A DNA stretch of 64,000 bases, from contig JAGIQG010000013.1 in the NCBI GenBank assembly GCA_024679065.1, positions 84,506,001-84,570,000 of the forward strand. The letters run 5' to 3'. Source of the DNA: Sphyrna mokarran. Lineage: Eukaryota. Of the stretch, positions 60,601 through 61,209 are shown in pieces. The notes under the pieces are model-generated. The model was not told where the DNA came from, did no database searches, and was given only the letters and a program-made list of their open reading frames with translations. Positions within the stretch are counted from its first letter, which is position 1, and the number at the start of each line of letters is the position of its first letter. A program made the position numbers and the translations under genes.

Positions 60601-61209
60601 ACCCTTGGGTGAAGAAATTTCTCCCACCTCAGTTCTAAAAAGTTTACCTATTATCCTCAAACTCTGACTCCTAGTTCTGGACTCCCCCCACACTCAGGAA
60701 CATTCTTTCTAAATCTACCCTGTCTAACCCTGTTAGAATTTTATAAGTTTCTATCAGATCCCCTCTCACTCTTCCAAACTTGAAGCATTAACTCTATTTT
60801 TCTCTCTCCTCAGATGCTGCCAGACCTGCTGAGTTTTTACTCAACATTTCCTGTCTACGTTGAAGCTTAAACCATTGTTTGTTGTCTCTTTCTCTCCCCC
60901 ACACCTGCCCCCTCCTCTCTGCCCACCCACCAGATGTGGTACAGCAGCTACTGGACTGTGACCAGGCAGCTGTGACACATAAGAACATATCCGGTTGCAA
61001 GTGGGTGTTGGCCTACAATGGACACACACTGAGCTACTTTGACACCAGGGCGAACAGGCTGATAGTGGAGAGTTCCACGGTGAAAAGTGAAGTGGACAGC
61101 TTAAACAAGGATCCCAAAGCACTGAAGAACATCCGGAATGAGATGCAGGACACGGTGAACTTTCTGAGCCAGTTGCTGGAGGTTGGCTCTGGTACGCTTG
61201 ACCGAGAAG
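57684..61209 (+). CDS. WB: MHC W-category beta chain (WB-like), 5' part: leader and beta1 exons; gene continues beyond the window
   Basis: Leader exon 57684 (or the in-frame ATG at 57726) to 57774, MPPVRNVIPNGSILMVAAFSCYFLSLISAL, with G|gtaaga donor. Beta1 exon 60934-61209 (276 nt, phase 1-1): DVVQQLLDCD...CKWVLAYNG...TVNFLSQLLEVGSGTLDRE, resembling class I alpha2 (QxxxGCD, AYDG, YLENGKETLQR). Lies head-to-head with the alpha gene. Confidence 0.8.
58189..58226 (+). ncRNA. Minimal type I hammerhead ribozyme motif (Penelope-type)
   Basis: tttgc-CTGACGA-A-GGC acaaag GCC-GAAA-GCT-A-gcaaa: 5-bp stem I, 3-bp stem II, palindromic AGCT stem III, intact core. Confidence 0.65.
60934..61209 (+). CDS. 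WB: WB exon 2, membrane-distal beta1 domain
   Basis: Pyrimidine tract plus cag acceptor, G|gtaaga donor, 92 open codons with an MHC strand/helix pattern. Confidence 0.85.

What the first reader, a model, noticed from the sequence alone, without database searches (positions are those of the whole stretch)
60934..61209. WB beta1 lacks the canonical groove disulfide and has a new strand-2 cysteine
The first Cys (QQLLDC, equivalent to class I C101 / class II-beta C15) is present, but its usual helix partner (C164/C79) aligns to Thr in QDTVNFL. A second Cys sits 13 residues after the first (CDQAAVTHKNISGC), enclosing a loop about 2 residues longer with an N-I-S glycosylation sequon. Inference: a strand1-strand2 hairpin disulfide replaces the sheet-helix staple, freeing the helix and altering groove geometry. 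The exon is 276 nt, the length of class I alpha2 exons (human class II beta1 exons are 270 nt). The class I D122 position is Thr, so the interface set is only partly conserved.
Basis: partly seen in the sequence, partly recalled or inferred. Interest (0 to 1): 0.72.

Follow-up and report, generated by a model that had tools for sequence, protein, structure and literature searches.

The report
Shark W-category MHC cysteine swap
This is an intact shark copy of a known non-classical immune gene (W-category MHC beta chain, DS3 subgroup) whose odd cysteine pair is shared across sharks and already stands in a 2021 published alignment; the pair likely links two neighbouring strands in place of the usual strand-to-helix bond, and the same pattern recurs in salamanders.

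Summary
Window 60934-61209 is the 276-nt beta1 exon of an intact W-category MHC beta gene, the ortholog of houndshark WB_DS3 (91% identity in beta1). Both cysteines, 13 apart, with no helix cysteine, occur in all 8 other shark DS3 proteins retrieved (7 species) and all 5 DS3 rows of Okamura 2021 Dataset S1. They are therefore a known lineage trait. The second Cys sits at class I G112, across the sheet from C101. Two AlphaFold2 models end strand 1 on one Cys and start strand 2 on the other, so a cross-strand disulfide is likely; no distance could be measured. A 'freed helix' and altered groove are unsupported: the model keeps the usual class II beta1 fold. The N-I-S sequon is absent from all 7 other species. 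The same Cys pair without a helix Cys stands in all 5 salamander WB rows, and coelacanth WB1 has four Cys (101, 112, 160, 164). I found no comment on this in the text I could read; the paper's SI Appendix was unreadable. One origin versus convergence is unresolved (AU p=0.26).

The parts
60934..61209 (+). WB DS3 exon 2, beta1 (membrane-distal) domain, 276 nt
   Evidence: AG/GT, open frame; 91% to Triakis WB DS3; covered exactly by a contig of run X1
60957..60959 (+). First Cys (class I C101 / class II beta C15 equivalent), last residue of strand 1
60996..60998 (+). Second Cys (class I G112 equivalent), first residue of strand 2
60984..60992 (+). N-I-S sequon in the strand1-strand2 loop; not conserved in the lineage
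   Evidence: Asp at this place in 7 of 7 other shark species; Asn in 1 of 5 published rows
61026..61028 (+). Thr at the class I D122 position (published column 37)
   Evidence: T/Q/S/I, never Asp, in 8 shark rows
61152..61154 (+). Thr at the canonical helix-Cys position (C164 / beta C79)
   Evidence: T/N/A/S/G in orthologs
57684..57774 (+). WB DS3 exon 1, signal peptide
   Evidence: 83% to the Triakis leader; GT donor, in frame. Exons 3-7 lie beyond the window at G000:C335:84576558-84585030; the whole frame is 301 codons, 87% to WB_DS3_01
49873..50124 (-). WA Nds3L alpha1 exon, the head-to-head alpha-chain partner; contains no Cys
   Evidence: matches the 'WA Nds3L' rows of Dataset S1 by eye
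47378..47656 (-). WA Nds3L alpha2 exon (Ig C1-set) with Y8, F37, L55, F57, W61
   Evidence: compared with Dataset S2 rows
45464..45588 (-). WA Nds3L connecting peptide / transmembrane exon with the CxxGxxxGxxGxxxG motif
   Evidence: compared with Dataset S3 rows
54491..54575 (-). Candidate WA Nds3L signal-peptide exon (inferred)
   Evidence: hydrophobic ATG exon with a phase-1 GT donor, one of 8 candidates listed; not confirmed by reads

Best explanation
The exon encodes the beta1 domain of the known shark W-category MHC beta chain WB DS3, whose two cysteines are predicted to face each other across strands 1 and 2 and likely form a cross-strand disulfide in place of the lost strand-to-helix bridge. 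Shown: intact gene, orthology, invariance of the pair in sharks, loss of the helix Cys, no other Cys in the alpha1 or beta1 domain. Predicted: the two Cys close the hairpin around a 12-residue loop that holds a short helix. Inferred: the bond is oxidised in the mature protein and braces the hairpin and its lengthened loop, in a part of the platform that no Ig domain supports. The long helix stays packed on the sheet by non-covalent contacts, and the chain pairs with WA Nds3L as a class II-type heterodimer with a non-classical role.
For: Both Cys are invariant and 13 apart in the window and 8 of 8 other shark DS3 proteins (7 species, pairwise beta1 identity down to 43%) and in 5 of 5 published DS3 rows. 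AlphaFold2 with 53 rows gives strands E33-39 and E52-58 (Cys39, Cys52; pLDDT 92-94). With 11 W-category rows only it gives E2-8 and E21-27 (Cys8, Cys21; pLDDT 90-94). The second Cys aligns to class I G112; that 101:112 is a non-hydrogen-bonded cross-strand pair, the site type such disulfides use, is recalled from class I structures, not tested here. The WB ectodomain has only these two Cys and the Ig pair; WA alpha1 has none. In Dataset S1, Cys at column 27 occurs in 11 of 48 WB rows and 0 of 71 class I alpha2 / class II beta1 rows; 10 of the 11 lack the helix Cys (by eye; two or three independent lineages at most). WA DS10 alpha1 has a Cys pair in the same register (columns 10+29 against 12+27) in 6 of 7 rows and lacks both in the skate. 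Tiger salamander WB, which has this pattern, reached the cell surface with WA (PMC8713811). The canonical beta bridge braces a region free of Ig contact (PMC8236899 passage).
Against: No S-S distance was obtained: the fold tool returns no coordinates, and no experimental W-category structure appeared among the rows shown. An unpaired column-12 Cys persists in other rows (2 of 8 WB DS1 rows, South American lungfish WB1, chicken CD1-2), so a conserved Cys here need not be paired. Neighbouring residues are invariant too (Asp after the first Cys, Gly before the second; 21 of 91 columns), so Cys invariance is only about a 1-in-20 event. Carcharodon has a third Cys two residues on. Cross-strand disulfides are often strained and redox-active (PMC4354306 passages), so a purely structural role is not assured.
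Confidence: 0.75

Rival explanations
1. The pair forms a cross-strand disulfide that acts as a redox (allosteric) switch, as in CD4 domain 2, and not mainly as a brace.
For: Cross-strand disulfides are metastable and often thioredoxin substrates; in CD4 domain 2 one replaced the canonical Ig disulfide stepwise (PMC4354306 passages). The predicted geometry is of this class.
Against: Nothing here measures redox behaviour. The site is where the canonical bridge lies under the helix and is likely partly buried (inference).
Confidence: 0.12
2. One reading: the swap frees the beta1 helix and so reshapes the groove.
For: The helix Cys is absent. The canonical bridge sets helix height in class I against class II (PMC8236899 passage). 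The model's long helix runs unbroken over residues 60-88.
Against: The model superposes on class II beta1 at 2.4 A over 86 of 91 residues with helix pLDDT 94-96 over most of its length. WB DS1 (0 of 8 rows with a helix Cys), a dogfish non-classical class I and two CD1 rows also lack the bridge, so its loss is recurrent and no specific sign of a remodelled groove. No alpha1/beta1 model was measured.
Confidence: 0.2
3. The two Cys do not bond to each other: they are free thiols, a metal site, or form inter-chain (homodimer) links.
For: Unpaired column-12 Cys exist in other MHC rows. Extra Cys in teleost S and P lineages have been proposed to dimerise (PMC4364491 passages).
Against: The two Cys are predicted to be direct neighbours; the secretory pathway is oxidising (established knowledge); alpha1 of the partner has no Cys.
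Confidence: 0.1
4. The pattern is decay, a private substitution or an assembly error.
For: None found.
Against: Intact 7-exon frame of 301 codons; 0 differences in an independent sample's contig; conserved in 7 other species.
Confidence: 0.01

Closest known systems
W-category WB DS3 subgroup (Triakis scyllium WB_DS3_01, BBO94057.1; Okamura et al. 2021, PMC8713811)
   Same: 91% identity in beta1, 87% over the chain; same two Cys, same Thr at the helix-Cys and D122 columns; head-to-head with WA Nds3L.
   Different: The window has an N-I-S sequon where houndshark has D-I-S; otherwise ordinary ortholog differences.
Salamander WB (Chinese, Hokkaido, tiger salamander, axolotl rows of Dataset S1)
   Same: Cys at columns 12 and 27, no helix Cys, in 5 of 5 rows; 13 apart in the two hynobiid rows, with the same three-column loop insertion.
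   Different: Otherwise highly diverged; 12 apart in tiger salamander and axolotl; orthology to DS3 not tested because no tool returned these proteins.
Coelacanth WB1 (H3AH79)
   Same: Cys at columns 12 and 27; similar end of the beta1 domain.
   Different: Keeps the helix Cys and has a fourth Cys one turn before it (class I 160); Cys 11 apart; does not group with DS3 in my trees.
W-category WA DS10 alpha1
   Same: Strand1-strand2 Cys pair in the same register, 6 of 7 rows; present in this genome.
   Different: In the alpha chain, one rung further from the loop (columns 10 and 29); belongs to another gene pair.
HLA-DM beta1 extra Cys pair; classical class II beta1 and class I alpha2
   Same: Same fold (Z 9.4 to HLA-DP beta1). 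Mammalian DM beta rows carry an extra sheet-floor Cys pair at columns 30 and 40; that it is a disulfide in the DM structure is recalled.
   Different: They keep the canonical sheet-helix bridge; the DM pair joins strands 2 and 3 and is added, not swapped.

Membership tests
W-category MHC | Class II-type chain architecture: leader, membrane-distal domain, Ig C1 domain, CP/TM/CY | tested here: met
   7 exons, 301 codons; C1-set; class II beta fold
W-category MHC | WA and WB genes paired head to head | tested here: met
   WA on minus from about 54575 down, WB on plus from 57684
W-category MHC | WA alpha2 has W61 with L55, F/Y57, Y8 and F/L37 | tested here: met
   against the Nds3L rows of Dataset S2; positions counted by eye
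W-category MHC | WB beta2 lacks class II W61 and has P57 | tested here: met
   P57 present; position 61 is Asn, as in the published houndshark DS3 row
W-category MHC | WB beta2 G61 (described as 'mostly' present) | tested here: not met
   Asn here and in houndshark DS3; Gly in Heptranchias, Pristiophorus and Hemiscyllium orthologs. The type member DS3 fails it too, so it does not exclude membership
W-category MHC | WB beta1 interface residues Q6, A32, G35 | tested here: met
   all three in the window; Q6 and A32 invariant, G35 in 3 of 8 shark rows
W-category MHC | WB beta1 D37 (class I D122) and WA alpha1 V30 | tested here: not met
   Thr at both, as in the published houndshark DS3 and blue shark Nds3L rows; a subgroup trait already in print
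W-category MHC | Class II TM glycine motifs in both chains | tested here: met
   WA CxxGxxxGxxGxxxG; WB GxxxG
W-category MHC | WA and WB proteins form a heterodimer at the cell surface | not tested
   Shown in print for tiger salamander only; no complex was predicted here
WB DS3 subgroup | Orthology to Triakis WB_DS3 | tested here: met
   91% beta1 identity; record name WB_DS3_01; retrieved DS3 proteins form one clade, 100/99 (the window's own chain was not in the trees); one match in the genome
Classical class II beta / class I alpha2 | Canonical sheet-helix disulfide (C15-C79 / C101-C164) | tested here: not met
   no helix Cys
Cross-strand disulfide (CSD) | Two Cys directly opposite on adjacent antiparallel strands | tested here: met
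   in two predicted models, read from strand limits only
Cross-strand disulfide (CSD) | Non-hydrogen-bonded site, staple conformation, oxidised state | not testable with these tools
   no coordinates returned; the site type is recalled from class I sheet registration

The most novel reading that the evidence does not exclude
The 101/112 cysteine pair is an ancestral mark of one W-category beta lineage that predates the shark / bony-vertebrate split and survives as shark DS3, coelacanth WB1 and salamander WB. Coelacanth's four-Cys cluster (101, 112, 160, 164) is the frozen intermediate of a disulfide swap that replaced the most conserved bond of the MHC platform with a cross-strand, possibly redox-switchable, bond.
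Probability: 0.25. Interest if true: 0.55.

Novelty: new member of a known kind. Interest (0 to 1): 0.3.

Why it matters
The gene and its cysteine pattern are published data, so the finding as written adds one ortholog. What may be unremarked is the structural reading. No W-category structure appeared in my searches and the family's function is open. The pair gives a cheap test (disulfide mapping and Cys mutants in the existing tiger salamander expression system) of how an MHC platform stays folded without its best-conserved bond. If the shark, coelacanth and salamander forms share one origin, the pair would also give a rare orthology marker among W-category beta chains, whose Ig-domain tree is unresolved in print.

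Tried and rejected
Cys-Cys distance: both folds returned only confidence and secondary structure. A phmmer search of the beta1 domain alone against solved structures gave nothing relevant (4 hits, best E 0.38); Pfam MHC_II_beta scored below its cut-off. No W-category entry was among the rows shown; only the best 50-60 rows are shown, so this does not prove absence. A homolog search with WA alpha1 found nothing at E<=0.001 among 36 candidates, so no full-length WA was available; no complex was predicted. No salamander or teleost WB protein was recognised among the hits, so those statements rest on reading Dataset S1 by eye. Trees: with 53 rows and with 26 of those rows and five trait columns masked, coelacanth WB1 fell beside class II (83/69; 85/87) and DS3 beside DS1 (89/79; 84/84). 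Holding DS3 with coelacanth cost 5.3 log-likelihood units, p-AU 0.26: neither shown nor rejected. No RNA holder is listed on record for the exon; X1 is RNA by guess only, and the leader-to-beta1 joint itself was not observed. A recalled precedent, strand-strand disulfides in the MCMV MHC-like protein m157, could not be verified: the papers were not held and two reviews say nothing on it; it is not used. A hydrophobic exon at 33954-34070 (minus) was first taken for the WA TM exon and rejected after comparison with Dataset S3. The sequon was rejected as part of the mechanism. Look-ups of earlier scan findings returned nothing.

Full report
The observation. Window 60934-61209 is a 276-nt exon with AG and GT borders, phase 1 at both ends. 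Its frame has Cys at residues 8 and 21, an N-I-S sequon at 17-19 and no further Cys. A 1211-nt contig of run X1 (same species label, another sample and study; RNA is a guess) lies on 60932-61209 with no differences and leaves the flanking intron uncovered, as a spliced transcript would. In a contig of run X16, from a related species, all 11 differences are listed and none falls in a Cys codon; for X3, 13 of 16 are listed and none of those does.

What the gene is. The exon is 91% identical to Triakis scyllium WB DS3, whose cluster holds a record named WB_DS3_01. The other exons lie at 57684-57774 and beyond the window. Together the seven give an open frame of 301 codons, 87% identical to WB_DS3_01, with Cys only in the leader, the two beta1 places, the Ig pair and the tail. 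The alpha partner WA Nds3L lies head to head on the minus strand; its alpha1 has no Cys, its alpha2 has the defining W61, and its TM has the class II glycine string. A WB DS1 / WA DS10 pair follows within about 85 kb and WB Nds5L lies about 0.74 Mb away on the same contig. This fits the three pairs described for white shark. The beta1 exons of the three WB paralogs are 276, 258 and 276 nt.

Is the cysteine new? No. In Dataset S1 of Okamura et al. 2021, all 5 DS3 rows have Cys in columns 12 and 27 and Thr in column 105, where class I has C164. All 8 other shark DS3 proteins retrieved here (7 species) keep both Cys exactly 13 apart while pairwise identity falls to 43%. The helix position varies (T, N, A, S, G) and the D122 position is never Asp. 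The sequon is recent: Asp replaces Asn in 7 of 7 other species, and only the blue shark row of the five published has Asn. Against over-reading: 21 of 91 columns are invariant in these rows, so joint invariance of two columns is about a 5% event.

Geometry. Column 27 is class I G112. AlphaFold2 on the houndshark chain with 53 rows gives strand 1 as residues 33-39 and strand 2 as 52-58, with the Cys at 39 and 52 (pLDDT 92-94). On the window's own domain with 11 W-category rows it gives 2-8 and 21-27, with the Cys at 8 and 21 and a short helix in the loop (mean pLDDT 91.8). Two seven-residue strands in this register put the Cys opposite each other at the closed end of the hairpin. From memory of class I sheet registration, 101:112 is a non-hydrogen-bonded pair, the type that cross-strand disulfides occupy; this was not tested, and no distance could be read. 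The model matches class II beta1 (HLA-DP, Z 9.4, rmsd 2.4 A, 86 residues; whole chain), which gives no sign of a displaced helix, though a static model cannot show mobility.

Wider pattern, read by eye from Dataset S1. Cys27 is in 11 of 48 WB rows (5 DS3, 5 salamander, 1 coelacanth) and in 0 of 71 class I alpha2 and class II beta1 rows. Ten of the 11 lack the helix Cys. The coelacanth keeps it and has a fourth Cys one helical turn earlier (class I 160), confirmed in retrieved proteins. Of the 37 WB rows without Cys27, 28 keep the helix Cys and 9 lack it (8 DS1, 1 lungfish), so loss of the canonical bridge is recurrent and does not require the new pair. Some rows keep column-12 Cys with no visible partner. 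WA DS10 alpha1 has a Cys pair in the same strand register in 6 of 7 rows and neither Cys in the skate. These are two or three independent lineages, not 11 events. The tiger salamander pair, whose WB has this pattern, is the one shown to assemble and reach the cell surface, so the arrangement is compatible with folding.

One origin or several? Hynobiid salamander WB has the same 13 spacing and loop insertion as shark DS3, which favours shared descent. My trees do not support it: DS3 is a firm clade (100/99), but coelacanth WB1 falls weakly beside class II and DS3 weakly beside DS1; forcing DS3 with coelacanth is not rejected (p-AU 0.26). Salamander WB was not available for the trees, and the coelacanth record used has a doubtful beta1-beta2 junction.

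Mechanism. Most likely (0.75) the two Cys form a cross-strand disulfide that braces the strand1-strand2 hairpin and its longer loop, in the part of the platform that the canonical bridge normally stabilises because no Ig domain lies under it (PMC8236899). The helix stays on the sheet by packing. A redox-switch role (PMC4354306), a reshaped groove and unpaired thiols are lesser rivals. The paper notes that W-category subgroups lack full sets of peptide-binding residues and high polymorphism, so the molecule is likely non-classical.

Literature seen. PMC8713811: main text parts 1-5 of 6, a term search (cysteine 2 and disulfide 1 occurrences, all in figure legends on Ig or HLA-A2 bonds), Dataset S1 parts 1 and 4-7 of 7, searched rows of Datasets S2 and S3. 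Its SI Appendix PDF could not be read and may well comment on these cysteines. Passages only: PMC4364491, PMC4354306, PMC8236899, PMC12619710, PMC13399432, 10.1101/2025.08.27.672527, PMC9013968, PMC3972465. Searches for W-category with MHC, shark or cysteine returned at most three papers; a looser search (40 of 133 listed) added one relevant preprint. None of the passages read discusses the beta1 cysteines. The library lacks most subscription papers.

Verdict. A true observation on an ortholog of a known W-category subgroup; the pattern has been in a public alignment since 2021. The cross-strand reading and its recurrence in salamander and coelacanth are a modest, testable addition. Interest 0.3.

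Noticed in passing
G000:C335:84643829-84644080 (+), beyond the window: WA DS10 alpha1 exon with its own strand1-strand2 Cys pair, also 13 apart; head to head with WB DS1, whose beta1 (84624593-84624850, minus, 258 nt) has no Cys at all.
   Followed up: partly
G000:C335:83828450-83828725 (-), L022: WB Nds5L beta1 exon, 276 nt, keeps the canonical Cys pair and has an extra Cys two residues before the first. The three WB paralogs of this genome thus show three different cysteine states.
   Followed up: partly
P0152 / P0173 (coelacanth WB1): Four Cys at class I positions 101, 112, 160 and 164, a cluster that could form two sheet-helix bridges or rearrange.
   Followed up: partly
window 9085-16500 (+): Exons of a TSR2-like pre-rRNA-processing gene (Pfam WGG, E 4e-08 for 15667-15984) upstream of the W-category pair; a possible synteny marker.
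   Followed up: partly
window 33954-34070 (-): 117-nt AG/GT-bounded open stretch coding a Cys-rich hydrophobic, TM-like segment; not the WA TM exon, no Pfam match; gene unknown.
   Followed up: partly
window 61334-64000 (+): 25-bp minisatellite, at least 105 copies, 85% matches, starting 125 bases into WB intron 2.
   Followed up: no
P0162 (Carcharodon DS3): A third Cys two residues after the strand-2 Cys (class I 114), on the groove-facing side by alternation.
   Followed up: no
G000:C1548:81.0-81.9 Mb and 91.0-92.2 Mb; C772:7.9-9.0 Mb: Large tandem arrays of Ig C1-like exons (dozens of matches to the WB beta2 domain), probably MHC class I or Ig clusters.
   Followed up: no
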